IMG/VR virus record: IMGVR_UViG_3300030331_006276 | DNA: 64,000 nucleotides | From: a virus | Direction: 5' to 3' (one strand) | Shown here: positions 2,323 through 51,967 of the stretch, one piece after another | Layout of the letters: each line of letters begins with the position of its first letter | Position numbering within the stretch: the first letter of the stretch is position 1 | Translations under genes and position numbers: made by a program | Notes under the pieces: generated by a model | The model's database searches: none | Seen by the model: only the letters and a program-made list of their open reading frames with translations | Told to the model about the DNA's origin: nothing

Positions 2323-2324
2323 TT

Positions 2325-16837: not shown

Positions 16838-17497
16838 TTGCTTTAGATAACGCCTAAAATTCTTTTTAATGCCAAGTAATGCTTTCAAACCACTTGGAAA
16901 GTGTCTTACATATGGATTATGTTTAGTTACTTTTTCGTAGTTTTGAATTATATTATAAGGAACTATACAACTTATATCTCTTATATTATGAGTATTTAAT
17001 TCGTACATTTTTTGACATACTCCTTGCTCCCAATCAGAATAATTCTGTTTAAACATCCACTCATCATAAGTCCAAAATTTTAAAAGCTCCTTTACATTAG
17101 GTGTATTTTTTACTATAAAAACTCCTGTATTTATTGCTGGGTAATTAGAATCAATTTCAAGTGGAAACCCTTTGCATGTACCATCCTCGCTAAAAATTAT
17201 CTGCTTATCTTTATACTCATTAATTAGATCTTCAATAGGCCCTCTGTCTATATAAAAATGAGCATCAGCATCTATCCAAATAATATAATCGTAGTTATCT
17301 AAATGCTCTATAACCATGGGTAACTTTTCCCAGGCTAAGTCTTTTCTATTATGTCTTCTTTTTGAAGAAAACTTAAAATCATAACCATATTTTTCACAAT
17401 ATGCTTTGTTTATAGCATAACTCAACTTACCATACTTTTTAGCAACTACGCTATCAAACCACATTACTATGCATATCTTATTCTTCTGGCCTATCAT
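16823..17497 (-). CDS. Glycosyltransferase, GT34 (GMA12/MNN10)-like
   Basis: AWEKLPMV, YIIWIDADAHF (DxD), INTGVFIVKN, WEQG. Likely start MIGQKN at 17497, since the track start lies deep inside the fibre gene. Confidence 0.7.
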   Translation of the reverse strand: MIGQKNKICIVMWFDSVVAKKYGKLSYAINKAYCEKYGYDFKFSSKRRHNRKDLAWEKLPMVIEHLDNYDYIIWIDADAHFYIDRGPIEDLINEYKDKQIIFSEDGTCKGFPLEIDSNYPAINTGVFIVKNTPNVKELLKFWTYDEWMFKQNYSDWEQGVCQKMYELNTHNIRDISCIVPYNIIQNYEKVTKHNPYVRHFPSGLKALLGIKKNFRRYLKQLTIA

Positions 17498-20400
17498 ATT
17501 CAACTCTAATACTTCCTTCACTATCAGTAAGAGGATTTTGTAACATATGTATATCATGTCTTTCACCCAATACCATCCATGAAACAGTAGCAGTTGAATC
17601 TGTAACACAACTTTCAACTGTTAATGTATTACCTGAAACCGAACCTTTAACTGGGTCCCAGTTAGTTTCATTAGTAGTAAATGTTCTAAAGCATCTATTT
17701 AAAGCAGTTAATGTACCATCTGTCATACCATATAAATTATCAATATCAACAGTAGCTTTACCAGCTGTTAATTGTACAACTCCGCTATAGATATTATCAG
17801 CTTGAGGCGACTCAACAAATGAGTGTGATAACCGCTTACTACCGGATAAAGCAGGTAATGGATGCGCAATATCAAAGCAACCTGAAGATTTAGATAATGT
17901 ACCACCTACATGAACACTACCGGTAGTAATTATAGAACCCTGACCAGAGCAGCAACCACATGAACCTACTGCTACTACATAACTACTACTACACGATTGT
18001 CCTCCGAAACCAGCTCCGCAGACAAATGCTGTACCAGTAGAAAAGCATCCGCAAACATCTAGATTATCAGCAAAAGTTCCATCACCGCCTCCGAGAGTTA
18101 AAACAGTTCCAGTTGAATCTTGAATCAGCAATGAACCTCTTTTGTTCCCCATAATTGAACAACCTAAAGTATTATTAATAAAAAATTGTTCAGCATCTGG
18201 ACTAGGAGCAGTATTATAGATACTAAAGGCTGAGCATCCGGCTTCTCCTGCTACTATCTTAACTTCAGGATTAGATTTTAACAAACAAATAGCTCCAGTT
18301 GAGTCTGTACTATCACAACCAACTTTTACATTATTATTAAATATAGCAGTACCGGCATCTGACATATCTAATGTTAATGCTGTTATAGTTGATGAATCAT
18401 CTACTCCTTTGAAGATAATATCTTTATTATTGGTTTCTGATTTTATTACAAAATTAGAAGTATCTCGTTTAAATCTTCCAAACGCTGTACCATCATCTTT
18501 AAGAATTACATCAGCACCTCCTGCATCAATATTAATATCTCCTCCAGCATCAATAGTTAACTCACCACTATCTGATATAGTTGAATTAGAAAGACTAATA
18601 TCACCACATACTAACATATCACCAGTACGACCAATGCAAAATACTCTTGCAAGCGTTAAATCACAACCTATAGCAGTACAGCTATTACTGCTATCAGCAC
18701 AAAATAATAAACTACTGCTAGATATTTCTAATGCAGTATGACCACCACTAAAGTTTCCATATGTAGATACATAGGCTGAACTACCAGCTTTACCCTCAGC
18801 GCCGAAGCCTATAACAAAATTACCTGATGAGTGTCGTGTTGATATAACTCCTAATCTATTTTCACCTGAATAATTGGCTGCTAGCACTCTACCTCCTGTA
18901 GTTGCAGTTGCACCTATAGTAAAATCTGCTCTAGAGTGAACTGTTTCAACGCTAGCGTTACCTATTGAAACTGTATTATCTCCACAACCACAAGCACAAT
19001 AACCTATTACAGTTTCATTACTTGGACCGGATCCACTTGCTCTAGTACATGCCCCTAAATAAGTTGCTTGATCAGGAGATGTAACAGTATTACTACCATT
19101 TATTTGTCTTGTTCCTGCAAAAAACCCTAAAGATACATTGCATACGCCATCAGTATTTTTTTCTAATGCATGTGTACCTACAACTGTATTTGCACCACCT
19201 GTAGAGTCATTAGCAGCATTTGTACCTATTGCTACATTTCCCCCGCTAGTTGTATTGCATATTAATGCATTATTACCTATAGCTACTGTACAAAAACCAC
19301 TATTTTTTAAACCAGCTTGTCTACCTATAGTAACTATACAACCCCCGTCAGTGTTGCACATACCGGAAAATTCTCCTATATTAACATTACCACTTCCTGA
19401 AGTAATACAACTACCTGCGTGATAACCTAATGCAGTATTTCCTTGCGTACTGCTGTTTTTTAATGCATTATTACCTACAGCTGTATTTTGGTGACCGGTA
19501 TTAGCGCATAAAGCTCCAGTACCTATAGCTACGTTATCACCACATGTAGTATTACTTTTACCAGCATCACAACCAACACTGATATTTCTAGCACCGGTGG
19601 TGTTGCATGCTGCAGCATTTTTACCTAAAGCTATATTATCACTTGCAGTTGTATTACCCATAAGAGCCTGAAACCCTAATGAAATATTATTGCAACCTTC
19701 AGTATTACACCGCATTGAATGAAATCCTAGTCCAATATTGCAGTTACCGCAAGTATTACAATATACAGCTCCACATCCTAGAGCAATATTATTAAGACCT
19801 GTTGTATTGAATAAGAAGGTATTCATTCCTAATGCAATATTACAACAACCTGTAGTATTATTTAGAGCAGTTCCGCAACCTATTGCAATATTGCCTCCAC
19901 CCTCAGTATTACAATTTAACGTGTTTATTCCTATAGCTATGTTTTCATTTCCTGTTGTATTTTTTAATAAAGGTTGTCTACCTATTCCAACGTTAAAGCA
20001 ACCTTCAGTATTTGAACACAGAGGAAAAGATCCAATAGCTACATTACAGCAACCACAAGTATTATCACACAAAGCTTCAAGACCTAATCCAACGTTAAAG
20101 CTACCAGTTGTATTATTATATAAAGCTACATAACCTGCAGCTACATTATTACTACCAGTAGTATTTAACACAAGGGCATGATTTAAAGCAACATTTTGAC
20201 AACCTGTAGTGCAACATAATGCTTGTCTACCTATAGCTACGTTATAACACGAAGTAGTGTTGCACATACCAGCTCTCTCACCTATAGCTACATTATATTG
20301 ACCAGATGTATTGCATTTCAGAGCTAAACAGCCTATTCCAATATTATTAGAACCTGTATTATTTGCTAGGGCATCCCTTCCCATTCCAATATTATTAGAA

Positions 20401-23400
20401 CCTCTTCTGCCTGAATGCATAGCTTGGTGACCCATTGCTATGTTATCTTCACCAGTATCTAAACATGTTAATGAATTTCCAAATGCAATATTATGATTAC
20501 CAGCTGTAAGAGCAAACAACGCGGTATTACCAATAGCTACATTAGTATCCCCATCAGTATTATTATGCAAGGCACTTTTACCAATACCTACATTTTGATC
20601 ACCAGTAGTGATTTCCTGTAAAGCACTTCTACCGTAAGCAACATTATCAGTACCACTAGTTATACATCTCATCGCACAAAATCCTATACCTACGTTATAA
20701 CAACCAGTAACGTCACAACCAAACATAGCATCATGTCCTATAGCTACATTTTGACAACCTGTAGTAGCATTTTGTAAAGCTGCTTTACCAACTGCAACGT
20801 TACACCCACCGGTAGTGTTACTTTGTAAAGCTCTACAGCCTACAGCAACATTACCGGTAACTGTATTTTTACATAACGCAGCACACCCTATTGCAATGTT
20901 CACGCATCCTGAAACATTGCAAAGATTTGCATGAGTTCCTATTGCTATATTACCACTTGCATTAGTTTGAGCAAATGCTGCTGAGCTACCTATTGCTACA
21001 TTATTACCTCCACTACAATTTTGTTGTAATGCATTAGGTCCTAAGGCAACATTACTATTGCCAGTTGTCATATTTTTCGCAGTTTGCGTACCTATTGCTA
21101 CGTTATCTGATCCCTCGGTTAAGCCACATAAAGATCTAAATCCCATACCTATATTTTTAGCACCTGTAGTAAGTGCCCCAATGGTTTGACATCCAATAGC
21201 AATATTGCAATTACCAGTAGCACTACCGGAAGTACCCTGGCCAGCGCAACTACCTAAAAAGACATTATCAGCACCTGATGTCATGTTTACCCCCGCGGAT
21301 GCTCCGATATGTATATTTTTTGAACCGGTATTCACATTCCCCGCTTTACGACCGATCGCTACTGTTTCAGCACCTGTAGTATTACATATCATTGCGCCAC
21401 AACCTATAGCAACATTAAAATTACCTGTAGTATTCTTTATAAGAGTACAACAACCTAAACCTACATTACTACAACCATCTGTAGTACATAATAATGCACA
21501 CATTCCTATAGCAATATTATGAGAACCATTTGTGCTCAAGCACATATTTCTAAAACCTGCTGCAAAGTTAAAATTACCAGTAGTATTACACTTAAGTGCA
21601 TTAAAACCTAAAGCTATATTACATCCCCCGGTACACGTACACATTAACGATTGTGAACCCATTGCTATGTTATCTTTTCCAGTAGTAGCACAAAGCATTG
21701 AACATGTACCCATAGCAATATTACCCTGATTAGATTCTGTCATAGGGCCAGCGCCAGCACACGGCCCGATTGAAATATTACTAGTACCTGTTGTAGTACT
21801 TCCTCCAGCATTATTACCTAAAGATATATTTGATGATCCAGTTGTAAGATTTTGGTTAGCAAGACAACCTAATGATATATTATTACCACCTGTGCCGGCA
21901 GCTGCATCAGAAGTACTACCTCTCCCTGCACCGCATCCAATACCAATATTATGATTTGCCGATACTCTACCCAATGCGCAGTTTCCTATCCCTATACTAT
22001 TACTAGGAGCTGCAAAATCTCTGACACATGAATTGTCTACCATTAAAGCTCTACAGCCTACTGCTACGTTATTACACCCGGATATATTGTAATATAGACT
22101 TTGATACCCCACAGAAGTATTCCTTAGTCCACATACATTACAATATTGACTTTGAGATCCTAAAGCACTATTACAACTACCTGTAGTAATATCTTGAAGA
22201 GCATCTGGACCTACAGCAGCATTATGACAACCTGTAGTATTACTACACATTGCGCAAAAACCTAAAGCAACATTCTTTATTCCAGCTGTAGTATTGCGTA
22301 ATGTTGAGGTTCCTACAGCTACATTACATTTAGCTGATGCGCTTTGAAACATTGACCCTTCGCCTATAGCTACATTTTGACAACTAATATCTGTACAAAG
22401 CATTGTACAAGATCCTATAGCTATATTAGACTGACCGCATCTAGCATTTTGCATTGATCTATAACCTATAGAAACTGTCTTACTATTACTACCATCATTC
22501 TCAGAAAGAAGAGCTTGATGCCCTAGTGCAACATTAAAACAACCTACATTACACATAGCTGCTTGATGACCCACAGCAGTATTTTGTGTATTATTATTAC
22601 ATCGTAGAGCTCCGCATCCAATTGCAACATTTTGACTACAATTATTTTTTTCACCAGCAAAGTCTCCTACAAAAGTATTAGAGCAACCTCCTGAAGTCAT
22701 TTGATTACCTGCACATTGTCCTATAAGTACGTTTTGTCTACCTGTGGTGAGACACTCACCTGCATCAGTTCCGAAGAGTGTATTAGCTAATCCTCCACTA
22801 TTCCCAAAAAGCTGGCTGCAATATCTTTTAGCACTTATACTGCCATTTACTGTAAATTGCTGATTTGGTGTTGCAGTATTAATTCCTACGTTTTTAGTAC
22901 TAGTATCAGAATAAATTGTAGGATTACCAGATTCATCCGAAACATAAAAATCATTACCCGATGAAGCGGGTTTTATTTTAAAGCTATTGCTATAAGTCCC
23001 ACCAGTACCATGTGAACCTATTCTCCATGTTTCACTACCACCAGGCTTAAATAGTAAATGTGTATTTGTATCATAGCTACCATGCGCACTTTCAATAAAT
23101 GCTAAACCTGCGCCTCCATCATAATCTATACCTAAAGATACCGGATTAGCAGAATGAAATAACTCTAATGCAATAGTATTACCGGTAGTTTTTGATCCAA
23201 TTCTTAACTCATTAGTAGCAGGTCCCCCTCCACTACCTCCTATATAATAACCACAACTCGTACCATCTAAGCCTATATTTTTTGCGCTAAGACCACCGCG
23301 TGCACTTATATTGCCTGAGACTGTAAGCAGTTCACCAGGAGCTGTTGTGCCGATGCCGACGTTGCCGCCCTCAAGGATTGTCAATCTTTCGGTGACATTA

Positions 23401-24515: not shown

Positions 24516-24537
24516 TAATATTAATATTTAATCTGGA

Positions 24538-27500: not shown

Positions 27501-30500
27501 TATTAGAACACAAAGCTTCAGCTCCTATAGCAATATTACATTTACCTGTAGTATTGCCAGCTAATGCTTTACAGCCTATAGCAGCATTAAAACACCCACC
27601 AAAGTTACTATATAAGGAGCATTTACCAGCAGCAAAATTATTAACACCAGAAAGGGAAGAGTATATAGCTTGATACCCTAACGCAATATTATTAGACCCT
27701 GTAGTATTACCACATAAAGCCTGATATCCCATAGCATTATTACAACTACCTGTGGTGTTGCAGTATAAAGCTTGTAGTCCTATAGCATTATTACTATCTC
27801 CTGTTGTATTACCAAATAATGCAGATCGTCCTAGAGAATTATTATTACACCCAGTAGTATTAGTCCATAAAGCAAACTTTCCAATAGCATTATTATAACA
27901 GCCTGTAGTATTAGATTTTAAATTGCAACAACCTATAGCAATATTTTCACATCCTGTTGTATTACCAAATAATGCACCCAATCCTATAGCAGTATTATGA
28001 CACCCACCAAAGTTACTATATAAGGAGCATTTACCAGCAGCAAAATTATTAGTACCGGAGTTAGCGAGATATAAACTTTGATTTCCAAGCGCGACATTAT
28101 CAGTACCAGTTTTGTTGCCAGCTAAAGCATTCGATCCAATACCTGTGTTATCAGTACCAGTTGTATTTAAACATACAGCGTTACTACCTAATGCAACGTT
28201 GTTACTACCTCCAGTAGCGTCTCTCATTGATCTATAACCAACGGAAAAGTTATGTGATCCTCCCGTCTGGTTTTGTTGAGAGCAAAGACCTAAAGCAGTA
28301 TTACAACCACCGGTTTGATTTTGACAAAGAGCATTTTGACCTATTCCTATATTATATGAACCGGTAGTATTTTTAAATAAAGCTCTCTGACCTAAAGCTG
28401 TATTATGACAACCCGATGAAAAATTTTCTAAAGTATTACTACCTAAAGCAATATTTTCACAACCAGTAGCATTTACTCCTCTACCAGCGCAGTCACCTAT
28501 TCCTATATTACAACTACCTGTAGTATTACAAAATAATGCTTGATTACCTATCCCAACATTACTACTACCTGTTGTAGTGTTTCTCATTACATTAGGACCA
28601 ATTCCAACGCTACCACTACGACAGTGATTAAGTGCCATAACGCAATGACCTATAGCAACATTGCAAGATCCACTACCACCTAAAGTAGTAAAACCAAATC
28701 CTATATTATGACTTCCACTTGTATTAGTAGATAAAGTATTTCGTCCCATGGCTATATTACAACCACCTGTAGTATTAGCGCATAAAGCTATATGACCTAA
28801 TGCAATATTACAGCTACCTGTAGTATTACCACGTAAAGTCATTCTACCTATAGCTACATTACCACCAGCAGTTGTATTGCTTAGTAAAGCTTCAGGACCT
28901 ATAGCAGTATTAAAATCACCTTCATTATTTTGTAAAGTAGTAATACCAATACCTATATTACAGGTCCCCTCAGTACCATTAATCATGGATGATGAACCTA
29001 ATGCAATATTATCACAACCAGTATCATTACAAGCCATCGCAAGACGACCTATAGCAACGTTATGTCCTCCTGTAGTATTGCTTTTTAAAGCTTGCTGACC
29101 TACAGCAACATTTGAAGATCCTATACGATTTAAACATAGAGTGTGATCACCTACCCCTACGTTAAAACAGCCACCATAGTTATTACGTAATGAGCTACAA
29201 CCTAAAGCTGTATTATGACAACCAGAAACAGCGTTACACATAGTATTTCTACCCATAGCTATGTTGCAACCACCGCAAATATTGTTATGCATTGCTCCGC
29301 CACCTAAAGCAATATTATGACTTCCTTCAGTATTCAATCTCATGGTCAGGCGACCCATAGCTATATTTTGACTTCCCGTAGTATTACTACATAAAGCTGA
29401 ACGATTTATTCCAATGTTATCACCCCCCGTAGTATTACACATTAAAGCTTCTGCACCTCCTGCAAAGTTAAAACAACCAGAAATATTGTTTTGCATTGCT
29501 TGTCGTCCTAAAGCTACATTACATCCACCGCAAGTATTAGAGAATAACGCAAAAAAACCAACCGCAACGTTACCACAAGCAGTCGTATTACATTTTAAAG
29601 CATCGCAGCCTACAGCTACATTACGACAACCAGAAGTATTGCTACTAAAAGCACATGTACCTATACTAACATTACAACCTTTATCGCTACAAATACCTTT
29701 TGAGCTTAATGCTCCATTTACAGTAAACTTTACTCCAGGCGCTGAAGTACCAATACCAACAGTTTCTTCTGAACCATCTACGAATAATAAATGTGTATCA
29801 GTGTTACCTTCAACTCTAAAATCATTTGAAGCTCCAACATCATTAATTACTACTCCACTATTATTTGCAATTAACCTTTCTTCATTACCGGTACATAGCT
29901 GAATCGTATCAGTATCAAAACGAAGCGACGTATCAAGATCACCAACATGCATTAAGCAGTTAGCCATTGCCATAGTATTACAAAATACTGCTGGTTGAGT
30001 AAATGTCTTATTACCATCTATAGTTTGGGATCCTGTAGTTCTTACAACTGTACTATCTACACAAACACATGCGCAACCTGTACCATTATTAACTGTAATA
30101 CCATCACAACCAACTACGTCAGTAACAGTACCAACATTACTAGTAGTACAAAATATATCAGCTAGATCGCGACCAGCTGACACTATACCTCTGGTAGTGT
30201 CGGTTATATGTAAACTAGCGCCGCTTAAAGCACCACTAGCGCATATATTACCACAAACTTCTAGTTCTTCTGTTGGAGTATTAACTCCTATACCTACATT
30301 ATTTGAGCTAGTAATAGTTAAAGCAGGAAAGCTACCAGGTTTTGCTATGGTGAAATGACTATGGTTAACGCCTCCAGAACCAGAAGCTATTCTCCATGTC
30401 TCACCATTAGGTCTGTTTGAAAGTCTGATACCTGTTTTATCAGCACCATCTATACCGCCTCCCATAGAACCTGATAAATGAAGTTTTGCTGTAGGAGCAG

Positions 30501-33500
30501 TTGCTCCTATACCAACGAAGCCACCACTTAAAACTGTTAGCAAATTTCCATCATCACCACTATCATCAGAAATATTAAACAGGTCACCAGTTTGAGAACT
30601 AGCTCCTACAATAGATAATGGAATACGAGCTGGGCTTTCTGCAGTAAATGTAAACTGATTAAAAGCATCAAATGTAAGGCCAGAAGTACTCCCACTACCT
30701 ATCCCTCCACCATATGAATCTCCACTACGGATATTAATGGATCTTGTAGCATCTAGTCGAGTGTTACCAGTATTACGTACATACAACTGCGCATTTTCAC
30801 CACTCTTATCATCAAACCCGTTAATTTTTAGAGCATTATCATCAGCACCTTGTGAGATTTCAAGTTTAGTAGAGGGGCTATCTGTACCAATACCTATTGC
30901 ACCATCATCAGCAAATACAATATCATCTCCATTAGAATCTATAAAGTGAGCAATAGGCTGTGTACCTCCTTGCTTTACAAATAATGCAGGTCCAGTACCA
31001 GTGTTAGTAACGGAAAGCGCTGATGTAGTTGATACTGTTGTCTCAACACACGTAAAGTCTCCAGTTACAGAAAGATTACCATAAATGGTAGAGTCACCGG
31101 TTACTAATGAATCACCAGCAACATGAAGTTCGGTTGCAGGACTACTAGTGCCTATACCTACATTACCAGCGCAATTTATTACAAATCTATTAGTCCCGTT
31201 TTCTTGGAAGCATATTAGATCAGCAGCACCTGATGAAATATCCCTGTTAACAAAAAACTGCGTAGCATTTCGAGCTCTTCCAGTAAAACCAATGCAATCA
31301 GTAAAACTATCGCCTATATGAAGAGTAGTGTTATTAGCTATTGGTGTAGCTGATGATATAATGGCAAGACCATTACCACCTGATTTAGATCCACTTACAA
31401 TAACTTGAGGTGCGTTAAGACAAATTTGACTTGATGCTGCTACCTCAGCACAGAAACTTGAGTCAAGTTTTAGTTTATTACCATCAACTGAAGTGATCGT
31501 GCTGCATTGGCTAGGAGTGCTCTCATGAGACATATCAATACAACCTTCAGGCAATCTTACTGTACTACCGTCTATAAGACAAATATCACCATTAGCACTT
31601 ATATTGCCAGATACAGTAAGCTTATCACCTGGCGCTGAAGTACCAATACCAACATTACCAGCAGCTTGTATTCTGAATTTTTCGACTCCGCCTCCTTGCC
31701 AAACTAAGCTACCACCATTTATTAACTTTGATGTACCGTAGTTAAACTCTACCCCACCGGCATTAGTTAATTTTATATTTGGTGTAGAAGTATCACCAAT
31801 TATACAGCCCCCATCTATAGCTACGTTACATGTAAACAGAACATTACCGTTTGTAGCACTTAATCCTCCATTAGCGCTTATATTACCCGCTACAGTAAGT
31901 TTTTCGTTTGGTGTAGTTGTACCAATACCAACATTACCACCCTTACAAACATAGAACATGTTGTCACCAGCCCCTACACTACCGCCAGTGTCTATCCTAT
32001 AATCCCCGCCTGTAGTAGCTCCTGTCGAAATACAATCACTACCTTGCTGAAAACGAATTTGTCCCTGATTACTTGACCCGCCAATTGTTACTAACTGGGT
32101 ACCGCTTCTATGAAACTGAGCCAAAGTACCACCGGTAGAATTAACATGCAGTGGCGCTTCTGGTGCTACTGTACCAATACCCACTCTACCATTAAAATAA
32201 TTAAAGGCGGAGCCTGTTGCACTTAATCCTCCATTAGCGCTTATATTACCTGAGACAGTAAGTTTTTCTCCAGGCGCTGAAGTACCAATACCAACTTTAT
32301 CTGCTGAACCGTCAACAAACAATGCATGTGTATCTGCATCACCTTCAACTCTGAAGTCGTTGGGATTGCCATTGTCATTAATTATGATACCGCCGTTACA
32401 CGCACGTATATGCTCTTCACCTCCTGTGCTTACTACGGCTATATCATTAGCTAGTTGTATAAAAGTATTGCTATCACCATCATGTATAATTTTATTTGCT
32501 ACGCATATATCATCACTAAAAGTTTTTGCACCCGCAATACATTGTGTACCACTTGTACGAACAACAGTCGAGTCAACACAAACACACGCACAACCAGTGC
32601 CATTATTAACAGTAATTCCATCACAACCAACTACGTCAGTAACAGTACCAACATTACTTGTTGTACAAAATATATCTGCTAAATCACGACCAGCTGAAAC
32701 TATACCTCTGGTAGTATCAGTTGTATGTAAGCTAGCGCCGCTTAAAGCACCACTAGCGCATATATTACCATCTACAGTAAGTTTTTCAGTAGGCGACTGG
32801 TTGCCAATCCCTACATTTGAAGTATCAGAATCTAACGTAAAGAAAAAGTCACTATTATCTCTAGAATAAAATTCAATCTTACCTGGTGTTGAGCCGTCAT
32901 CAGGCATATACCATTGTAAAGATCCATTATTAAGCATTAACAACTCATGTCGAGGGTTACCTCCTGTATATGAATCATTTCCTATAGCAAACGCAAATTT
33001 ACCTTGATTCGCTACATTTACTTGTAACCGAGCTTGTGGGCTCGTAGTTCCAATGCCAGTATCACCAGCATCTGTAATTATTGCTCTATTTGTACCACTA
33101 TTATTTTTAAATAAAATACTACCACCTGCGGTACCAGCAGTTACTTGATTAACAACAGCAGCATTACCAACAAGACTTGCTGAAGATTTTATATCACCAA
33201 TAACGTCTAGAGGTTTAGAGGGACTAGTAGTACCAATACCAACATTACAAGCAAAATAACCAACACCGTTTGTAGCACTAAGACCACCACAAGCGCTTAT
33301 GTTACCAGCAACAGTTAGTTTTTGACCTGGTGCTGTATTACCGATACCTACATTACCTCCATTAAAGTATGAAACTCCATTTGTCTCTAGTCTTATAGTC
33401 TCTACTGCAGATGCATTAAAAATAGAAAATCTGGGATGATTGCTATTAAATGCGGAGTCAAGTACCTTACGGTTAGAGTTATCCGTGTTTGTTATAGAAA

Positions 33501-36500
33501 ATGGTGACTGACTATTTGTCGACCAGACTTCTAATCTAGATCCATCCAAAGTTCCATCTGCTTCACCGACTAGTAAATTACAATATACATTTGCAGTTGT
33601 AGAGTCGACTTCAATAATATCATTTGTACCAAGAGTCGCGGCTCTACTTATCTTAAAATTATTAGAAGCATCGTCATCAATACCCATGGAGTAATCAGAT
33701 CCACTATCTAATTTAAAATGAAGAAAAGGATCTCCATTACCATTATCAGATTCTATTCTCAATTGAGACTCGCTAGAATTACTACTAACATGAAGAAGGC
33801 TTTCCGGTCTATTTGTCCCGATACCTACATTACAATCAAAATAACCGGCGCCTTCTGTAGCGCTAAGACCACCGCAAGCACTTATGTTACCAGCTACAGT
33901 AAGTTTTTGTCCTGGTGATGAAGTACCGATACCAACTTTATCTGCTGAACCATCAACAAACAATGCATGTGTATCTCCATCTCCTTCAACTCTAAAGTCA
34001 TTTGCATTACCTGGTTGATTAATAATTACACCCGTAGTATCAGCTCTTATAGCCTCTTCACCACCAACACATGTTATTATAAGGTCATCAGAAAATGCTA
34101 TCCTGGTATCAGTATCACCTGTATGGAAAATGCTACCACCTACGCATATACTATCACAAAAGTTTTTAGTACCACCTATAGTTTGCGCACCAGTAGTTCT
34201 TACAACAGTAGAATCAACACATACACATGCACAACCTGTACCATTATTAACTGTAATACCATCACAACCTACAACTTCGGTAACAGTACCTGGATTACTT
34301 GTAGTACAAAATATATCTGCTAAATCGCGGCCGGCTGATACTATACCTCTTGTAGTGTCAGTTGTATGTAAGCTAGTACTGCTTAAAGAACCACTAGCGC
34401 ATATGTTTTGTGATGAGTCAATAGTTAGTGCATTAGTACCATTAGTAGTAAATCCTAAACAATTAGCTCCAACTCTAAACATGCCAGTATCAGTATCATC
34501 ACTAAAGGTATACGATGGTGCAGCTGCACTTCCATTTCTATTGAAAATACCAGTGCCAGCATAAATCTTTAATCCTGTTGATTGAAAGTTGGCGATCCAA
34601 CTCCCCCCTATGGCGACATTCAACTCCCCTGCTGTCCTGTTAAATAAGCCAGTGTCTGTGTCAGAAGAGAAGGTGAGCGACGGGCTACCTGCACTGCCAG
34701 CTGGTATAGTTAAAATATTACCTACACACACATTACCAGTTGTGTGTAAACTAGCACCGCTTAAAGACCCACATGCGCTTATGTTACCAGCAACAGTAAG
34801 TTTTTCGTTTGGATTATTCGTTCCTATACCAACGTCACCAGCTATTTGCAACGATCCTCCTCCTGTATTTACGGCGTTAAAGTCGTAGCCAATACCTAAT
34901 TTACCATTGGAAGGGTTAATGAAATTGACGGCATTTGTGTTAGCATTAAGAAGGATTTTTGAACTCCCACGCTCATATAACCTAAGCGCTCCATCTTCAG
35001 TGCTTTCAACGGAAAGTTTTGCTGCTAATCTATCGCTCCCGTCATAAAGAGCTAATGCTTTGCTGTCACCTTTCAGTGTTAACAAATCTGGTGGGCTAGT
35101 GCACCCTATACCAACATTACACGAAAAAAGAACATTTCCGTTAGTAGCGCTAAGACCACCATTAGCACTTACGCTTCCAGCTACAGTTAGTTGCGTACTG
35201 CTTTGACAAGCTATGCTGTTACCAATTGTATCTGTATCAGACCAAACTGGTATAAAGTTAGCTGTACCGGTACCATCAACATTACCTGAACTAGTTGCAA
35301 AGATATCAGCTAGATCTCTTCCAGCAGAAACAAAACCTCCATTGGTAGAGTTAGCACTAACAGAACAAGCTTGAACTGCATTACAAGCGCTTATGTTACC
35401 AGCTACTGTAAGCTTTTTATTTGGCGCTGTAGTACCTATACCAACTTTACCGGATGATGGCATTAGTACATTATAGGTTAATTGATTAACTCTAAATAAA
35501 TGAGTACCGTTACCTGCTTCTACTCTTAATCCATCAAAATTACCACTTGAACCACCACCACAAAATACTGCTAAATCTCTATCAATTGTTTTAAGAGCCG
35601 ATACTTGCAAATATGATGACGGTCGGTTTGTGTTAATTCCAACGTTACAAGCGAAAAAATTAGGAGCTTTTGTTGCGCTGAGGCCACCGCACGCACTTAT
35701 GTTACCAGAAACAGTAAGTTTTTGTCCTGGGCTCGTACTACCTATACCTACATTACCATCTCCATTGAAGAACATCTCTCTACGACCATCGGTAGAGTTA
35801 AAAATAGTTAAGCCACCACCTAGATTTCTAAATTCGTATGTATCATCCCCAGCTCTTTGTAAAACAAAACCGTATTGAGTTCCCGAGCCTTCTACTTTTA
35901 CACTACCATCTTTTACATGTAATGATGTAGTTGGACCAGTAGTACCTATACCAACATTGCATGCAAAGAAATTTTTTGCTTCTGAAGCACTAAGGCCACC
36001 GCATGCACTAATATTACCTTTTACAGTAACATTGCTATTAAATGTAGCAGCTCCGCAATTAGACATATCAAGTCTTAAAGCTTCAAAATTTCCAGAAGAA
36101 GCACCACAAAAGACCATGTCCTTATTATTAGATTTGGCATGTATTATTAAATTACAACTATTATTTGTAATTCTTCCATACTCAACACCATTATCTTTAA
36201 GTTTAATATTTCCGCCATCGCCATCGAGAATAATATCACCACCTGCATCTATAGTTAAATCACCTCCGTCAGATATGGTTGAATCATTTAGAGTTATATC
36301 ATCTACTGTTAAAGAACATAAAGTACCTAATGATGTTACACAGGGTTGTGCAGCAGTTTGTAATGTGCCAGTGATATTTGTACCAATAATATTTGTACCT
36401 TGAATATCACCACAAGCAGATATATCACCAACAACAGTAAGTTTTTCATTTGGTGTTGCAGTGCCAATACCAATATTGCCTCCATCAGTTATAGCAATAA

Positions 36501-37968
36501 AGCCTCTTTCAATTAATCCGGTATTTAAATAATGACCAAACTTAGCTACATTATTACTTCTATCAAATCTTATAGCAGCATATCTAAAGTTACCATCAAT
36601 TGCTGAAACACCAGCAAGGGAGTATCTATCATTTCCATCTGTGCTAAATGACAGAATATTTCCTACTGCCTGAAGTTGTGCAATACTGGACGGACTCGTT
36701 GTACCAATACCGACTTTACCATTTATAGTAATGCCTGTATCAATAGCTGATATTACACTATCACCTAAAGTATCCGTATCATTCCATTGTGATATCTTAA
36801 ACTTTGTACCCGACCCATCAACATTACCTGAGCTTGTAGCAAAGATGTCTGCTAAATCTCTTCCAGCGGAAACAAAACCATTGTGTGTTGATCTAGCACT
36901 AAGACCATCGAAAGCAGTAATACCGCGAGATGTAGTTATATTATTAGAAAATGTTTTAATACCACCTATAGTTTGTGTACCAGTAGTTCGAACTACAGAA
37001 CTATTAACACCAACGGTATTTGCATTTACAGTTATACCGTCACCAAAACCAACACCAAGGGAAACATCACCTGTACTTCCTCCTCCAGTTAACCCCGGTC
37101 CAGCAGTAACGCTAGTTATATCACCAATATTAGTTGTAAATATATCTGCAAGATCTCGACCAGCTGAAACAATACCATTATTTGTTGATGTTGCACTTAT
37201 TGAATTACCTACTAAAGTATTACTGCAAACTGAAGTTGTACCACATATAGCAGGGCTACAAACTGAAGTTGTACCGCATATAGCAGGACCACAAATTGCA
37301 GTTGTACCACATATAGCAGGACTACAAACTGAAGTTGTACCACATATAGCTGGACTACAAATTGCAACACTTGCGCTTAAAGACCCTGTGGTTCTAGTCA
37401 TATTAGAACCACCACTTAGTAAACTATCAGTTAGAACTGTAGATCCTGACCATGCTGGTATAAAGTTTGTAGTACCTGATCCACATACACTTCCAGAGGA
37501 AGCAGTAGTTACAAATATATCTGCAAGATCTCGACCAGCTGAAACAATACCATTATTTGTTGATGTGGCACTTAATGATAGACCTTTAATAAAACCTGTA
37601 GAACTTACATTACCAGCAATAGTAAGCTTTTCATTTGGTAATGCAGTATTAATACCTAAATTACCACTATCTGCAAAATTTATTACTCCCCCCTCTTGAT
37701 CAACAAATTCTGCGATAGGTTGATTTGCACCTTTTTGTCTTACATATAAAGCTGGTCCAGTACCATTATTAATAACTGACAGAGCAGAAGTCGACGTTAC
37801 AATAGTTTTCGTAAATGTGGCAGATGTTGCTTCAAACTCTGTTGCAGTTAATTTAGTAAACGTTGCGTTAGTACCAGTAAGAGCATTCAAGAAAGCATTA
37901 CCACCCACAGACAAATCCTGTGTGATAGTTGCACCATTCTTTACCTTAAAATCTTTGTTTAATGCCAT
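24538..37968 (-). CDS. Giant Cys-rich tail fibre/adhesin (4476 aa) with putative autocleaving C-terminal chaperone
   Basis: MALNKDFKVKNG start; many GNVGIGT motifs; 7x SAGRDLADIF; about 4.7 kb of 17-aa repeats. C-terminal GGYFEE...IGDYITTSSKPGHG resembles peptidase-G2-type chaperones. Confidence 0.8.
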   Translation of the reverse strand: MALNKDFKVKNGATITQDLSVGGNAFLNALTGTNATFTKLTATEFEATSATFTKTIVTSTSALSVINNGTGPALYVRQKGANQPIAEFVDQEGGVINFADSGNLGINTALPNEKLTIAGNVSSTGFIKGLSLSATSTNNGIVSAGRDLADIFVTTASSGSVCGSGTTNFIPAWSGSTVLTDSLLSGGSNMTRTTGSLSASVAICSPAICGTTSVCSPAICGTTAICGPAICGTTSVCSPAICGTTSVCSNTLVGNSISATSTNNGIVSAGRDLADIFTTNIGDITSVTAGPGLTGGGSTGDVSLGVGFGDGITVNANTVGVNSSVVRTTGTQTIGGIKTFSNNITTSRGITAFDGLSARSTHNGFVSAGRDLADIFATSSGNVDGSGTKFKISQWNDTDTLGDSVISAIDTGITINGKVGIGTTSPSSIAQLQAVGNILSFSTDGNDRYSLAGVSAIDGNFRYAAIRFDRSNNVAKFGHYLNTGLIERGFIAITDGGNIGIGTATPNEKLTVVGDISACGDIQGTNIIGTNITGTLQTAAQPCVTSLGTLCSLTVDDITLNDSTISDGGDLTIDAGGDIILDGDGGNIKLKDNGVEYGRITNNSCNLIIHAKSNNKDMVFCGASSGNFEALRLDMSNCGAATFNSNVTVKGNISACGGLSASEAKNFFACNVGIGTTGPTTSLHVKDGSVKVEGSGTQYGFVLQRAGDDTYEFRNLGGGLTIFNSTDGRREMFFNGDGNVGIGSTSPGQKLTVSGNISACGGLSATKAPNFFACNVGINTNRPSSYLQVSALKTIDRDLAVFCGGGSSGNFDGLRVEAGNGTHLFRVNQLTYNVLMPSSGKVGIGTTAPNKKLTVAGNISACNAVQACSVSANSTNGGFVSAGRDLADIFATSSGNVDGTGTANFIPVWSDTDTIGNSIACQSSTQLTVAGSVSANGGLSATNGNVLFSCNVGIGCTSPPDLLTLKGDSKALALYDGSDRLAAKLSVESTEDGALRLYERGSSKILLNANTNAVNFINPSNGKLGIGYDFNAVNTGGGSLQIAGDVGIGTNNPNEKLTVAGNISACGSLSGASLHTTGNVCVGNILTIPAGSAGSPSLTFSSDTDTGLFNRTAGELNVAIGGSWIANFQSTGLKIYAGTGIFNRNGSAAAPSYTFSDDTDTGMFRVGANCLGFTTNGTNALTIDSSQNICASGSLSSTSLHTTDTTRGIVSAGRDLADIFCTTSNPGTVTEVVGCDGITVNNGTGCACVCVDSTVVRTTGAQTIGGTKNFCDSICVGGSIFHTGDTDTRIAFSDDLIITCVGGEEAIRADTTGVIINQPGNANDFRVEGDGDTHALFVDGSADKVGIGTSSPGQKLTVAGNISACGGLSATEGAGYFDCNVGIGTNRPESLLHVSSNSSESQLRIESDNGNGDPFLHFKLDSGSDYSMGIDDDASNNFKISRAATLGTNDIIEVDSTTANVYCNLLVGEADGTLDGSRLEVWSTNSQSPFSITNTDNSNRKVLDSAFNSNHPRFSIFNASAVETIRLETNGVSYFNGGNVGIGNTAPGQKLTVAGNISACGGLSATNGVGYFACNVGIGTTSPSKPLDVIGDIKSSASLVGNAAVVNQVTAGTAGGSILFKNNSGTNRAIITDAGDTGIGTTSPQARLQVNVANQGKFAFAIGNDSYTGGNPRHELLMLNNGSLQWYMPDDGSTPGKIEFYSRDNSDFFFTLDSDTSNVGIGNQSPTEKLTVDGNICASGALSGASLHTTDTTRGIVSAGRDLADIFCTTSNVGTVTDVVGCDGITVNNGTGCACVCVDSTVVRTSGTQCIAGAKTFSDDICVANKIIHDGDSNTFIQLANDIAVVSTGGEEHIRACNGGIIINDNGNPNDFRVEGDADTHALFVDGSADKVGIGTSAPGEKLTVSGNISANGGLSATGSAFNYFNGRVGIGTVAPEAPLHVNSTGGTLAQFHRSGTQLVTIGGSSNQGQIRFQQGSDCISTGATTGGDYRIDTGGSVGAGDNMFYVCKGGNVGIGTTTPNEKLTVAGNISANGGLSATNGNVLFTCNVAIDGGCIIGDTSTPNIKLTNAGGVEFNYGTSKLINGGSLVWQGGGVEKFRIQAAGNVGIGTSAPGDKLTVSGNISANGDICLIDGSTVRLPEGCIDMSHESTPSQCSTITSVDGNKLKLDSSFCAEVAASSQICLNAPQVIVSGSKSGGNGLAIISSATPIANNTTLHIGDSFTDCIGFTGRARNATQFFVNRDISSGAADLICFQENGTNRFVINCAGNVGIGTSSPATELHVAGDSLVTGDSTIYGNLSVTGDFTCVETTVSTTSALSVTNTGTGPALFVKQGGTQPIAHFIDSNGDDIVFADDGAIGIGTDSPSTKLEISQGADDNALKINGFDDKSGENAQLYVRNTGNTRLDATRSINIRSGDSYGGGIGSGSTSGLTFDAFNQFTFTAESPARIPLSIVGASSQTGDLFNISDDSGDDGNLLTVLSGGFVGIGATAPTAKLHLSGSMGGGIDGADKTGIRLSNRPNGETWRIASGSGGVNHSHFTIAKPGSFPALTITSSNNVGIGVNTPTEELEVCGNICASGALSGASLHITDTTRGIVSAGRDLADIFCTTSNVGTVTDVVGCDGITVNNGTGCACVCVDSTVVRTTGSQTIDGNKTFTQPAVFCNTMAMANCLMHVGDLDTSLRFDTDTIQLCTGNEERLIANNSGVVINDVGASNDFRVEGNTDTHLLFVDGSEETVGIGTSAPGVKFTVNGALSSKGICSDKGCNVSIGTCAFSSNTSGCRNVAVGCDALKCNTTACGNVAVGFFALFSNTCGGCNVALGRQAMQNNISGCFNFAGGAEALMCNTTGGDNIGINRSALCSNTTGSQNIAMGRLTMRLNTEGSHNIALGGGAMHNNICGGCNIAMGRNTMCNAVSGCHNTALGCSSLRNNYGGCFNVGVGDHTLCLNRIGSSNVAVGQQALKSNTTGGHNVAIGRLAMACNDTGCDNIALGSSSMINGTEGTCNIGIGITTLQNNEGDFNTAIGPEALLSNTTAGGNVAIGRMTLRGNTTGSCNIALGHIALCANTTGGCNIAMGRNTLSTNTSGSHNIGFGFTTLGGSGSCNVAIGHCVMALNHCRSGSVGIGPNVMRNTTTGSSNVGIGNQALFCNTTGSCNIGIGDCAGRGVNATGCENIALGSNTLENFSSGCHNTALGQRALFKNTTGSYNIGIGQNALCQNQTGGCNTALGLCSQQNQTGGSHNFSVGYRSMRDATGGSNNVALGSNAVCLNTTGTDNTGIGSNALAGNKTGTDNVALGNQSLYLANSGTNNFAAGKCSLYSNFGGCHNTAIGLGALFGNTTGCENIAIGCCNLKSNTTGCYNNAIGKFALWTNTTGCNNNSLGRSALFGNTTGDSNNAIGLQALYCNTTGSCNNAMGYQALCGNTTGSNNIALGYQAIYSSLSGVNNFAAGKCSLYSNFGGCFNAAIGCKALAGNTTGKCNIAIGAEALCSNTTGCDNTAFGKSALESSTTGSGNIAIGKSSLKENTTGNCNVGLGALTLTANICGSCNIAIGKETLKSNTCGFCNVALGGFALFCNTNGCDNVSIGQCALFSQEVACYNIAIGTKALKSLTCGCCNIAIGQEALCCNTTAKGNVGIGRSALRNNTTGKCNVALGSCTLCCNSTGSHNFAAGASALCSNDDSSGNTAIGCQALLNNTTGNFNIGIGNHALCCNTTAQCNIAMGPCSLRNNSSGSSNVALGVMTLCNNCCGNNNIALGPSAMRCATCSSNNVALGSEVLCHVSTGAHNYGIGQNALRSNTTGSQNFAVGASALICNTTGSNNVAIGVNALKDNTCGNLNTAIGCLTLFKNTEGCNNTAIGAFALCNNTTGCCNVSIGSNTMTSNTTGTRNVAIGAQILTSNTTGSCNVALGMQSLLCNVDGTHNFAAGNVTLFKNVSGSNNFAAGNVAGCGIIGGCHNFAVGSNTLQCNKYGNGNIAAGFIAGQKITGNHNIAFGQQSLQNVTTANSNIGIGCLTLFGCSDGATGGCNVSVGLGGLCSLTTGCCNIAIGCFPLACNSSGCSNIGIGTFALFGNTSGYRNVAIGDNSLRCNTEGEYNVALGYLGLTCNTTGGCNVAVGKEVMKCNDTGHSNVALGHCTMFFNVSGDHNIAIGSNAIKTGTRGCCQIALGQDALNKSCGNFNIAFGSQALKNNTTGTNNFAAGICALTDNSTGNQNIALGNIALFNNTSGISNIAIGGSEALRCNTTGNYNIALGAAAMAGNTCGCCSLALGLNAGRCTASSVVTEACNSIALGTRSRFCTTTPTNEIVIGVDACGIGDNTVTLGNDCITTTALKGCVGIGTTSPGEKLTVTGNISASGNGIFACVIAGGYFEEKAANKKLANYETGSLVSIGDDGELTLSTVENDRRVFGVAQKGACQPIVLGAEPVLITGEVSIGDYITTSSKPGHGKKAEYTLHGTVIAQAMEAGCGSSHVVKAMIRKM
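37138..37566. repeat. 54-bp perfect direct repeats (37138-37191, 37513-37566) flanking a tandem array
   Basis: Both copies read AAATATATCTGCAAGATCTCGACCAGCTGAAACAATACCATTATTTGTTGATGT; spacing 375 bp. Confidence 0.85.
37225..37356. repeat. 4 x 33-bp tandem repeat encoding (S/G)PAICGTT(S/A)(V/I)C
   Basis: Units at 37225, 37258, 37291 and 37324, read directly. Confidence 0.9.
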
Positions 37969-40403: not shown

Positions 40404-40404
40404 A

Positions 40405-44028: not shown

Positions 44029-44055
44029 ATTACTGTTTTTTTAATAAATACTTTT

Positions 44056-51954: not shown

Positions 51955-51967
51955 TTTTAAAAAATTT

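What the first reader, a model, noticed from the sequence alone, without database searches (positions are those of the whole stretch)
17478..37968. Two giant fibres with about ten-fold cysteine enrichment at interchangeable positions
In a hand-counted 90-aa stretch of the repeat array (SNTSGCRN...LCSNTTG), 9 residues are Cys; gp23 has 4 in 521. Cys swaps freely with other residues in the same motif: NISACG versus NISANG, NISARG and NISASG. A Cys-free module (GDGITVNANTVGVNSSVVRTTG) recurs as GCDGITVNNGTGCACVCVDSTVVRTTG (seen). The 17-aa NxAxGxxALxxNTTG arrays span roughly 25.0-29.7 kb and 19.1-22.8 kb, i.e. about 90 and 70 units. Proteins assembled in a reducing cytoplasm rarely carry hundreds of Cys (established). 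Inference: selection for surface thiols, for disulfide stapling after lysis, metal loading, thiol-mediated adhesion or chemical modification. This is a strong candidate for undescribed virion chemistry.
Basis: partly seen in the sequence, partly recalled or inferred. Interest (0 to 1): 0.78.

Follow-up and report, generated by a model that had tools for sequence, protein, structure and literature searches.

The report
Cysteine-studded giant fibres of marine phage
Two giant fibre proteins of an uncultured marine T4-like phage carry 324 cysteines at their variable, probably surface, positions, whereas most related phage fibres have almost none, so selection has favoured surface thiols for a chemistry still unidentified.

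Summary
ORF A (24538-37968, minus strand, 4476 aa) has 201 Cys (4.49%). ORF B (17478-24515, minus strand, 2345 aa) has 123 Cys (5.25%). The other 45 ORFs of the window average 0.91%.

Both proteins contain clean 17-residue repeat arrays of about 88 and 68 units. Cys is 7.8% in the arrays. It is absent from the conserved positions and makes up 18.5% of seven variable positions. Base composition predicts 3-4%.

The repeat family is very large (47,562 representatives) and normally avoids Cys. The median of the top 150 homologues is 0.17%, and 2,340 repeat units from Cys-poor homologues have about 0%. The distribution is bimodal: 12% of those homologues carry 2-5.6% Cys, at the same variable positions.

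A syntenic sister phage keeps the trait although its fibre middles share only about 34% identity. Two jumbo-phage contigs, probably unrelated, have three adjacent Cys-rich fibre genes each.

Cys positions show no pairing signal, and CC doublets are under-represented. No thiol-handling enzyme lies in the window.

My best reading, with moderate confidence, is stochastic disulfide stapling of the fibres after release into seawater. Metal binding, enzymatic modification and thiol-based adhesion remain open. The scan had already noted the sister phage's 3044-aa fibre on other DNA.

The parts
24538..37968 (-). Fibre A: 4476-aa giant mosaic fibre protein with 201 Cys (4.49%)
   Evidence: ORF and translation. 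PHROG 23837, 4636 and 6002, annotated 'virion structural / tail spike', at E 1e-163 to 1e-230, and four BppL_N motifs. Cys counts.
17478..24515 (-). Fibre B: 2345-aa giant fibre protein with 123 Cys (5.25%)
   Evidence: ORF and translation. Same PHROGs as A. Residues 189-319 match the trimeric beta-helix region of the Bdellovibrio MAT fibre Bd2133, PDB 8OND, at E 1e-7.
25183..29673 (-). 17-residue repeat array of A (residues 2766-4262, about 88 units; consensus N-[VI]-A-[IL]-G-x-x-A-L-x-x-N-T-T-G-x-x), about 7.5% Cys
   Evidence: Segmentation and per-position table. AlphaFold2 model of residues 3580-3783 is a beta-solenoid, pLDDT 75. VIA-align Z 12-15 to parallel beta-helices and tailspikes.
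19140..22631 (-). 17-residue repeat array of B (residues 629-1792, about 68 units), about 8% Cys
   Evidence: This stretch was the query that found 47,562 family representatives.
37369..37968 (-). Conserved N-terminal domain of A (residues 1-200), presumed to attach to the virion; only 1 Cys
   Evidence: 74% identical to fibre 1 of the sister phage L013, while the middle of the protein is 32-36% identical. 0.5% Cys.
37219..37371 (-). Short 11-residue Cys repeat (PAICGTTSVCS, about 4.5 copies) at A residues about 200-250
   Evidence: Read from the translation.
34183..34335 (-). First of three BppL_N-like modules in A that carry a CxCxC insertion. The other two are at 32542-32694 and 30025-30177. 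The Cys-free copy is at A residues about 270-330.
   Evidence: Motif positions 1246, 1793 and 2632. Pfam BppL_N hits.
17481..18818 (-). Non-repeat C-terminal domain of B (residues 1900-2345), 19 Cys (4.3%)
   Evidence: The last 196 residues are 72% identical to fibre 2 of L013. About 28 marine homologues at 42-76% identity have no Cys at the window's Cys positions.
38018..38701 (-). 227-aa ORF of unknown function directly upstream of fibre A. Its position is conserved in the sister phage (228 aa).
   Evidence: No PHROG or Pfam match. Synteny in L013. It has only 1 Cys, so it is not a CxxC oxidoreductase.
38701..39477 (-). GT2-family glycosyltransferase upstream of the fibre pair. It could belong to the fibre module or to the queF DNA-modification operon.
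   Evidence: Pfam Glycos_transf_2, E 6.5e-13. Also present in L013 but absent in L010, where QueF abuts the fibre.
16823..17617 (-). GT34-like glycosyltransferase directly downstream of fibre B. The listed TTG start overlaps B, so the true start is probably further downstream.
   Evidence: Pfam Glyco_transf_34, E 1.8e-13. Also called on TARA contigs that carry the identical gp23.

Best explanation
These are two giant virion fibre (adhesin) proteins of an uncultured marine T4-like phage. Most of each protein is a long beta-solenoid rod built from 17-residue rungs, about 42 nm and 33 nm for the two arrays at 4.8 A per rung. By analogy with related fibres they are probably trimers.

In this phage lineage the usual strong avoidance of cysteine in such fibres has flipped to positive selection. 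Cys fills about one in five of the variable, outward-facing positions. That is about 1.3 Cys per rung per chain and 324 per pair of monomers. The number is kept between relatives, but the exact positions are not.

Most likely mechanism (inferred, not shown): the thiols stay reduced while the fibres fold in the host cytoplasm. After lysis into oxygenated seawater they oxidise. Neighbouring Cys on adjacent rungs, on the other chains of the trimer and perhaps on neighbouring fibres then form a dense, stochastic network of disulfides. This would covalently staple the very long rods against unfolding, shear and proteases during a long wait for a rare host.
For: Shown:
- The proteins belong to a phage fibre family. 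Part of B matches the solved trimeric MAT fibre 8OND.
- The array model is a beta-solenoid.
- Cys is 4.5-5.3% overall, against 0.91% in the other genes of the window and a 0.17% median in the top 150 homologues.
- Cys occurs only at variable positions, where it is 18.5% against 2.8-3.8% expected from base composition. 2,340 units from Cys-poor homologues have about 0%.
- The conserved N-terminal attachment domain is not enriched (0.5%).
- Cys replaces T, S, N, A, V, G and Y in otherwise conserved domains.
- The sister phage L013 has the same synteny and keeps 2.6% and 4.6% Cys (7.1% in array units), although its fibre middles are about 34% identical.
- An 80%-identical C-terminal variant has the same count, 10 versus 10, with 3 positions exchanged on each side.
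- Independent contigs show three adjacent Cys-rich fibre genes among Cys-normal neighbours.
- The phage occurs in TARA Oceans metagenomes.

Consistent with stapling rather than metal clusters:
- Sequence-adjacent CC doublets, which cannot pair with each other, are under-represented, with odds ratios of 0.4-0.6.
- Redox-dependent disulfide bonding of fibres to the baseplate is documented in cyanophage Pam3 (PMC9942802).
Against: - Over 879 units from 38 Cys-rich proteins, no pair of positions, within a rung or between adjacent rungs, co-varies beyond multiple-testing noise. Architectural disulfides normally show fixed paired positions, so many Cys would be left unpaired.
- No coordinates were available. 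Neither the distances between Cys nor their exposure were measured.
- Whether the source water was oxic is not known.
- Some Cys-rich homologues come from non-marine MAGs.
- No thiol oxidase or isomerase is encoded in the window.
Confidence: 0.4

Rival explanations
1. Metal loading: the surface thiolates bind soft metals such as Zn, Cu, Cd or Fe. This could stabilise the fibre or, as in the 'Ferrojan Horse' idea, present a metal to a host uptake receptor.
For: The density of surface Cys is high. CxCxC modules occur three times in A and once in B, and could form a nine-Cys site on a three-fold axis. A 14-17 CxxC pattern is somewhat enriched in the window's own units, 7 against 2.6 expected. Iron-binding tail fibres have been proposed for marine phages (papers listed, titles only read).
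Against: Thiolate clusters of the metallothionein type need CC, CxC or CxxC motifs. In the arrays CC doublets are under-represented, and no spacing is enriched in the pooled set of 879 units. Positions turn over freely, which does not fit defined coordination sites.
Confidence: 0.15
2. Enzymatic modification of the Cys: radical-SAM thioether cross-links, S-glycosylation by the flanking glycosyltransferases, or another covalent decoration.
For: Glycosyltransferases flank the fibre pair: GT2 at 38701-39477 and GT34-like at 16823-17617. GT2 plus the 227-aa ORF are syntenic in the sister phage. Sugar-nucleotide enzymes lie at 1291-4047. A related phage record (G001, 154.6 kb) encodes a radical-SAM protein with weak similarity to SPASM or twitch peptide maturases. 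Earlier notes of this scan describe radical-SAM cassettes beside Cys-repeat fibre parts in other phages (unchecked here).
Against: There is no radical-SAM gene in the 64-kb window or in the other fetched loci. The relative's enzyme scores far below every curated cut-off and lies 17-25 kb from its fibres. GT2 is missing next to the fibre in L010 and may serve the queF DNA-modification operon. Cys spacing is not the CXXX pattern.
Confidence: 0.13
3. Thiol-disulfide exchange adhesion: the fibre Cys, or their disulfides, form transient covalent bonds with Cys-bearing surface proteins of the host, which is possibly a PVC-group bacterium.
For: Cys lies on the variable part of the fibres, the part expected to determine host range. 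The window carries DUF1549/DUF1553 and DUF1501 genes typical of Planctomycetes and Verrucomicrobia. The DUF1501 gene is 100% identical to a contig binned with a Roseibacillus (Verrucomicrobia) MAG. From memory, not tested: planctomycete envelopes are cystine-rich.
Against: Cys is spread along the whole 30-40 nm shafts and in non-tip domains, not concentrated at a binding tip. Free thiols would not survive long in oxic water. The host is unknown. Cys-rich homologues also occur in phages from other habitats.
Confidence: 0.1
4. No function: Cys accumulates through mutational bias or relaxed selection at unconstrained surface positions, for instance in low-oxygen water where thiols do no harm.
For: Cys positions are interchangeable and uncorrelated. 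Tyr falls from 11% to 3% at variable positions, and Tyr to Cys is a single A-to-G change. The oxygen status of the source samples is not known.
Against: The neutral expectation is 2.8-3.8%, against 18.5% observed. Other genes of the same phage have 0.91%. The count is maintained in diverged sister fibres. The distribution among homologues is bimodal, not continuous. In other Cys-rich homologues Tyr is not depleted.
Confidence: 0.05

Closest known systems
Phage fibre or 'virion structural protein' family with 17-residue N-x-A-x-G...N-T-T-G repeats (PHROG 23837, 4636, 6002). Examples are the giant fibre-like proteins of Prochlorococcus phages P-SSM2 and P-SSM5, and the tail fibres of pelagiphages HTVC111P and HTVC112P, roseophages CRP-1 and CRP-7, and SPO1-like Bacillus phages.
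   Same: Same repeat, same conserved positions, same giant mosaic architecture. HMM E-values 1e-130 to 1e-230. tblastn matches at 28-36% identity. 47,562 representatives in metagenomes.
   Different: Typical members are almost free of Cys: median 0.17%, and 0% in 2,340 units. The window's proteins have 4.5-5.3% overall and 18.5% at the variable positions.
Bdellovibrio bacteriovorus MAT (mosaic adhesive trimer) fibres, e.g. Bd2133, PDB 8OND (Caulton et al. 2024, PMC10769870)
   Same: B residues 189-319 align to the trimeric beta-helix region of Bd2133 at E 1e-7. Both are long, modular, trimeric adhesive fibres with G-I-G-T type beta-helix modules.
   Different: MAT fibres are bacterial, about 1000 aa long and exported. 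The paper mentions neither cysteine nor disulfide. MAT fibres have no 17-residue array.
YadA-like heads of trimeric autotransporter adhesins (Pfam PF05658; UspA1, CbpF)
   Same: Short N-x-x-A-x-G-type solenoid rungs. The highest sequence identity among the listed structural matches was to CbpF (20%), with 12% to UspA1, at Z 10.8-11.8. Some homologues carry PF05658 or are named 'trimeric autotransporter adhesin' by their source.
   Different: A and B do not reach PF05658 at E 0.01. They have 17-residue, not 14-residue, rungs. They have no membrane anchor. They are phage proteins made in the cytoplasm.
Disulfide-linked tail fibres of cyanophage Pam3 (PMC9942802)
   Same: A phage whose fibre attachment depends on disulfides and is sensitive to DTT. 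It is a precedent for redox chemistry in a virion made in a reducing cytoplasm.
   Different: Pam3 uses a few defined Cys at the junction of fibre and wedge. Here hundreds of Cys without fixed positions cover the fibre shafts.
Disulfide-braced beta-helical repeat proteins such as the Tenebrio antifreeze protein (recalled from memory, not tested against a model)
   Same: A Cys-rich, Thr/Asn/Gly-rich beta-solenoid with one short repeat per rung.
   Different: There the Cys are invariant, in fixed pairs, inside the coil. Here they are absent from conserved positions and variable in place.

Membership tests
Phage 17-residue-repeat fibre family (PHROG 23837 / 4636 / 6002) | Significant match to the family profiles | tested here: met
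   E 5.9e-230, 1.6e-181 and 2.5e-163 for A. E 2e-154, 2.8e-130 and 2.3e-131 for B.
Phage 17-residue-repeat fibre family (PHROG 23837 / 4636 / 6002) | Tandem 17-residue units with conserved N1, G5, A8, L9, N12, T13, T14 and G15 | tested here: met
   115 anchor pairs are spaced exactly 17 residues apart. The per-position table agrees with 2,340 homologue units.
Phage 17-residue-repeat fibre family (PHROG 23837 / 4636 / 6002) | Presence in the virion as a fibre or spike | not testable with these tools
   Rests only on the annotation of homologues and the position beside the head module.
Trimeric autotransporter adhesin, YadA-like head (PF05658) with anchor | Profile match to Hep_Hag / YadA_head | tested here: not met
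   The Pfam scan at E <= 0.01 gave only BppL_N for A and nothing for B.
Trimeric autotransporter adhesin, YadA-like head (PF05658) with anchor | Structural similarity of the rungs to solved TAA heads | tested here: inconclusive
   VIA-align Z 10.8-11.8 at rmsd about 8 A to UspA1 and CbpF. Generic right-handed beta-helices score higher, Z 13-15.
Trimeric autotransporter adhesin, YadA-like head (PF05658) with anchor | C-terminal outer-membrane anchor and signal peptide | tested here: not met
   No anchor domain in Pfam. The N-termini read from the translations have no hydrophobic signal segment (by inspection, no predictor was run).
Bdellovibrio-type MAT trimeric fibres | Sequence homology to the solved trimeric beta-helix modules | tested here: met
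   B residues 189-319 against 8OND residues 105-240, E 1.1e-7.
Bdellovibrio-type MAT trimeric fibres | C-terminal S74 intramolecular chaperone, or the alternative MAT tip domains | tested here: not met
   No Peptidase_S74 in A or B. Several homologues do carry it.
Architecturally disulfide-braced repeat proteins (fixed Cys pairs) | Cys at invariant, pairwise-correlated repeat positions | tested here: not met
   Occupancy is 10-26% at seven positions. No pair survives correction over 92 tests on 879 units.
Metallothionein-like thiolate-cluster proteins | Enrichment of CC, CxC or CxxC motifs | tested here: not met
   CC doublets at positions 16-17, 10-11 and 6-7 have odds ratios of 0.4-0.6. Only four isolated CxCxC modules exist.
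CXXX-repeat radical-SAM target system (TIGR04114 / TIGR04115), as noted elsewhere in this scan | Cys at every fourth residue next to radical-SAM maturases | tested here: not met
   The spacing is not CXXX. There is no Radical_SAM hit among the window's ORFs and no tblastn hit to the relative's enzymes.

The most novel reading that the evidence does not exclude
Several phage lineages have independently switched their giant fibres from near-total avoidance of cysteine to a dense coat of thiols whose number is selected but whose positions are not. This lineage, a marine T4-like group that possibly infects Verrucomicrobia, is one of them. That would imply a virion surface chemistry not described for any phage. 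Candidates are self-curing covalent cross-linking of fibres, or of a fibre mesh, on exposure to oxygen, redox-gated adsorption, or bulk loading with metal or glycan. Other notes of the scan report a candidate late selenoprotein in the same genome, which might handle these thiols.
Probability: 0.3. Interest if true: 0.85.

Novelty: new variant of a known kind. Interest (0 to 1): 0.66.

Why it matters
Phage fibres fold in a reducing cytoplasm and then work outside the cell. This family shows that they normally exclude cysteine almost completely. A recurrent, bimodal switch to about 5% Cys, and about 18% of exposed repeat positions, in giant fibres means that thiol chemistry is being used on the virion surface.

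If the thiols cross-link after release, this would be a simple way to harden very long adhesins and slow virion decay in the sea. Virion decay is a key parameter in marine virus ecology. It would also offer a natural design for self-stapling beta-solenoid nanofibres.

If the thiols instead bind metals or carry modifications, this bears on trace-metal cycling by viruses or on an unknown post-translational pathway. The hypothesis is directly testable on recombinant array segments, without the uncultured phage.

Tried and rejected
- **Trimer prediction.** Complex prediction with three copies of the array segment (alignment A2) was unreachable seven times. No trimer model and no verdict exist.
- **Cys geometry.** Structure prediction returns no coordinates, so solvent exposure and Cys-Cys distances could not be computed. 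Exposure is inferred from sequence variability only.
- **Fold search.** Foldseek against the PDB gave nothing below E 0.1. Sequence and profile searches of the PDB with A and with the array alignment gave nothing.
- **Close relatives.** Megablast against GenBank phages found none. No whole genome is held for this window.
- **First pseudo-alignment.** The alignment of overlapping array segments was useless, because MAFFT aligned the true overlaps. It was replaced by non-overlapping segments.
- **Sulfhydryl oxidase.** The search for Erv1/ALR in related viral records found none, but the control genomes did not match either, so this is uninformative.
- **Source samples.** A paper search for the TARA sample identifiers, to learn depth and oxygen, found nothing.
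- **Literature.** Searches for Cys-rich giant phage fibres found no description.
- **Near-identical variants.** Comparison of 98.6% identical fibres (L011 against L012) was too close to tell how well Cys is conserved.
- **tRNA-Cys.** No tRNA gene lies in the window.
- **Alternative genetic code or artefact.** Rejected. Both ORFs are open under table 11, and the other genes have normal Cys content.
Full report
**What is there**

The region holds two adjacent minus-strand ORFs. A is 24538-37968 (4476 aa) and B is 17478-24515 (2345 aa). They lie just beyond a T4-type head module: gp3-like sheath stabiliser, portal, head-closure, prohead protease, scaffold and gp23. Both match PHROG families 23837, 4636 and 6002, annotated 'virion structural protein / tail spike', at E 1e-130 to 1e-230. 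A has four BppL_N motifs. B residues 189-319 align to the trimeric beta-helix part of the Bdellovibrio MAT fibre Bd2133, PDB 8OND, at E 1e-7.

The phage is only distantly related to sequenced phages. Its gp23 is 33% identical to that of cyanomyoviruses, and there is no megablast match. The identical gp23 occurs on TARA Oceans contigs, so the phage is marine.

**The repeat arrays**

A residues 2766-4262 (nt 25183-29673) and B residues 629-1792 (nt 19140-22631) are almost uninterrupted arrays of a 17-residue unit, about 88 and 68 units. Positions 1-5 (N, V/I, A, I/L, G), 8-9 (A, L), 12-15 (N, T, T, G) are conserved. Positions 6, 7, 10, 11, 16 and 17, and partly 14, are variable.

An AlphaFold2 model of twelve units, built on an alignment of the window's own non-overlapping array segments, has pLDDT 75 and pTM 0.74. 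It is a beta-solenoid with one rung per unit. VIA-align gives Z 12-15 to parallel beta-helices of autotransporter passengers and phage tailspikes. Among the listed matches the highest sequence identity (20%) is to the CbpF trimeric-autotransporter head. Foldseek and PDB sequence searches gave nothing specific. At 4.8 A per rung, an established figure for beta-solenoids, the arrays would be rods of roughly 42 and 33 nm. This is an inference.

**The cysteine observation**

- A has 201 Cys (4.49%) and B has 123 (5.25%).
- The 45 other ORFs of the window have 116 Cys in 12,791 residues (0.91%). gp23 has 4 in 521.
- Within 113 clean units Cys is 7.8%, about 1.33 per unit. It never occurs at positions 1-5, 8, 9 or 12. 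It is the commonest residue at positions 6, 10, 11, 16 and 17, at 13-26%.
- Cys is also raised outside the arrays: an 11-residue PAICGTTSVCS repeat, three CxCxC modules, and the C-terminal domain of B at 4.3%.
- It is not raised in the conserved N-terminal 200 residues of A (0.5%).

**Is it more than composition?**

Random codons with the window's or the arrays' base composition would give 2.8-3.8% Cys. The variable positions have 18.5%. The rest of the phage proteome is normal.

**Comparison with relatives**

This is the most informative result. A full scan of 1.84 billion representatives with B's array found 47,562 family members at E <= 0.001.

- Among the best 150 the median Cys content is 0.17%, and 115 have under 0.5%. 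The closest giant homologues (2,000-5,300 aa) have 0-0.5%.
- In 2,340 units from Cys-poor homologues, Cys is 0.0-0.3% at every position. That is well below the neutral expectation, so the family normally selects against Cys.
- The distribution is bimodal. Eighteen of the 150 have 2-5.6% Cys, at the same variable positions.
- A second, independent homologue set, found through the N-terminal domain, gives the same picture: median 0.16%, with the nearest relatives at 2-4.6%.
- In the window Cys mainly displaces Tyr (11.1% down to 3.0%), Ala and Ser.

**Heritability and turnover**

A sister phage, L013 (86-kb JGI contig), has the same gene order: QueF, GT2, a 228-aa ORF, fibre 1, fibre 2, one further gene on the opposite strand (258 aa; no family match on record), then gp23. 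The ends of its fibres are 72-74% identical to A's N-terminus and B's C-terminus, and the middles are 32-36% identical. The fibres still have 2.58% and 4.60% Cys (7.1% in array units), while the neighbouring genes have 0-2.3%. More distant relatives in IMG/VR have 2-3.5%.

In the C-terminal domain of B, about 28 marine homologous modules at 42-76% identity contain no Cys where the window has one. They have T, S, N, A, V or G instead. Up to 16% of all differences are 'window = Cys'.

An 80%-identical variant, L019, has the same number of Cys (10 against 10), but three positions differ on each side. In the conserved segments shared with L013, 17 of the window's 23 Cys are shared, against about 66% overall identity. 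The amount of Cys is therefore maintained while positions drift.

**Recurrence elsewhere**

Two Cys-rich homologues lie on 363-kb and 372-kb contigs, which look like jumbo phages. In each, three adjacent fibre-like genes have 3.5-5.5% Cys, while the flanking genes have 0-2.1%, most of them under 1.3%. The nearest sequence neighbours of many Cys-rich proteins are Cys-free proteins at 40-46% identity. The trait is therefore labile and probably arose several times. A formal tree was not built, because the repeats make alignment unreliable.

**Tests that bear on mechanism**

- Pairing: within rungs and between adjacent rungs, no pair of positions is significantly coupled. This holds in the window and in 879 units from 38 Cys-rich proteins, where the best p is 0.004 over 92 tests. 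CC doublets are under-represented, with odds ratios of 0.4-0.6. This argues against a fixed disulfide architecture and against metallothionein-like clusters. It is compatible with a dense random network: at about 18% occupancy most Cys would have a Cys neighbour on an adjacent rung or chain (inference).
- Enzymes: no thioredoxin-fold, Dsb, Erv or radical-SAM gene lies in the window. There is no tRNA gene.
- Glycosyltransferases flank the pair (GT2 and GT34-like), and sugar-nucleotide enzymes lie at 1291-4047. However, GT2 is missing next to the fibre in L010.
- A relative's 154.6-kb record encodes two radical-SAM proteins. One is weakly SPASM- or twitch-like. Both score far below the curated cut-offs and lie 17-25 kb from the fibres. 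Neither has a homologue in the window.
- Neither protein has an evident signal peptide (read).
That the variable positions are exposed is inferred, not measured.

**Interpretation**

Firmly supported: these are giant phage fibre proteins, and in this lineage Cys at variable positions is positively selected as a bulk property.

Most likely mechanism (about 0.4): oxidative, stochastic disulfide stapling after release, which would stabilise very long rods. Cyanophage Pam3, with its DTT-sensitive fibre-baseplate disulfides, is the nearest documented precedent (PMC9942802).

Rivals:
- metal loading (0.15)
- enzymatic modification (0.13)
- thiol-exchange adhesion to a host (0.10), possibly a verrucomicrobium, given PVC-type genes and a 100% identical contig in a Roseibacillus MAG
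- neutrality (0.05)

**Novelty**

The protein family is known and very large. The Cys-rich state is not described in any paper I could find. The scan had already flagged the sister phage's 3044-aa fibre (P0153 on L013) as Cys-rich on other DNA. I classify this as a new variant of a known kind, of fairly high interest. The contrast with thousands of Cys-free homologous units is stark, and the hypothesis can be tested on recombinant fragments.

Noticed in passing
window 63525-63935 (-): A full-length tmRNA gene (Rfam RF00023, 133.7 bits, model positions 1-374 of 374), also called by ARAGORN with an unusually long tag peptide. It sits next to a lysozyme-like gene in the phage.
   Followed up: partly
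window 16823-17617 (-), 38701-39477 (-), 1291-4047 (+): Glycosyltransferases (GT34-like and GT2) flank the fibre pair, and three sugar-nucleotide enzymes lie in the window. Most repeat units carry an N-T-T sequon at positions 12-14, so the fibres may be glycosylated. No HMW1C-type N-glycosyltransferase was seen.
   Followed up: partly
window 58571-61515 (+); L015: A DUF1549/DUF1553 and DUF1501 gene pair typical of Planctomycetes and Verrucomicrobia. The DUF1501 gene is 100% identical to contig PBAI01000036.1, binned as a Roseibacillus sp. MAG. This is either a host hint or a phage contig binned by mistake.
   Followed up: partly
window 42783-47778 (+): The phage encodes CsgF and CsgG (curli secretion channel), a FecR-domain protein and a CHASE2 adenylate/guanylate cyclase in one block.
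   Followed up: no
window 39477-41561 (-): QueF-like nitrile reductase, a P-loop kinase and a PurN-like formyltransferase directly upstream of the fibre module, probably for 7-deazaguanine DNA modification. QueF-then-fibre synteny is conserved in L010 and L013.
   Followed up: no
L049:1369-2592 and L051:829-2364 (related viral record G001, 154.6 kb): A relative encodes a 407-aa radical-SAM protein with weak SPASM- or twitch-maturase similarity, and a 511-aa B12-binding radical-SAM protein next to sugar-nucleotide genes and PDH E1-like fragments. Whether the window's phage has them is unknown, since they are not in the window.
   Followed up: partly
L001:3641-16070 and L003:5662-15346: On two jumbo-phage-sized contigs, three adjacent fibre-like genes each have 3.5-5.5% Cys, while most flanking genes have 0-1.3% (one homing-endonuclease-like gene has 2.1%). 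One of these contigs is deposited as a 'Candidatus Paceibacterota' MAG and looks like a phage (homing endonucleases, family B DNA polymerase).
   Followed up: partly
window 51328-51993 (-): A ClpP-family protease gene next to class I ribonucleotide reductase genes in the phage.
   Followed up: no
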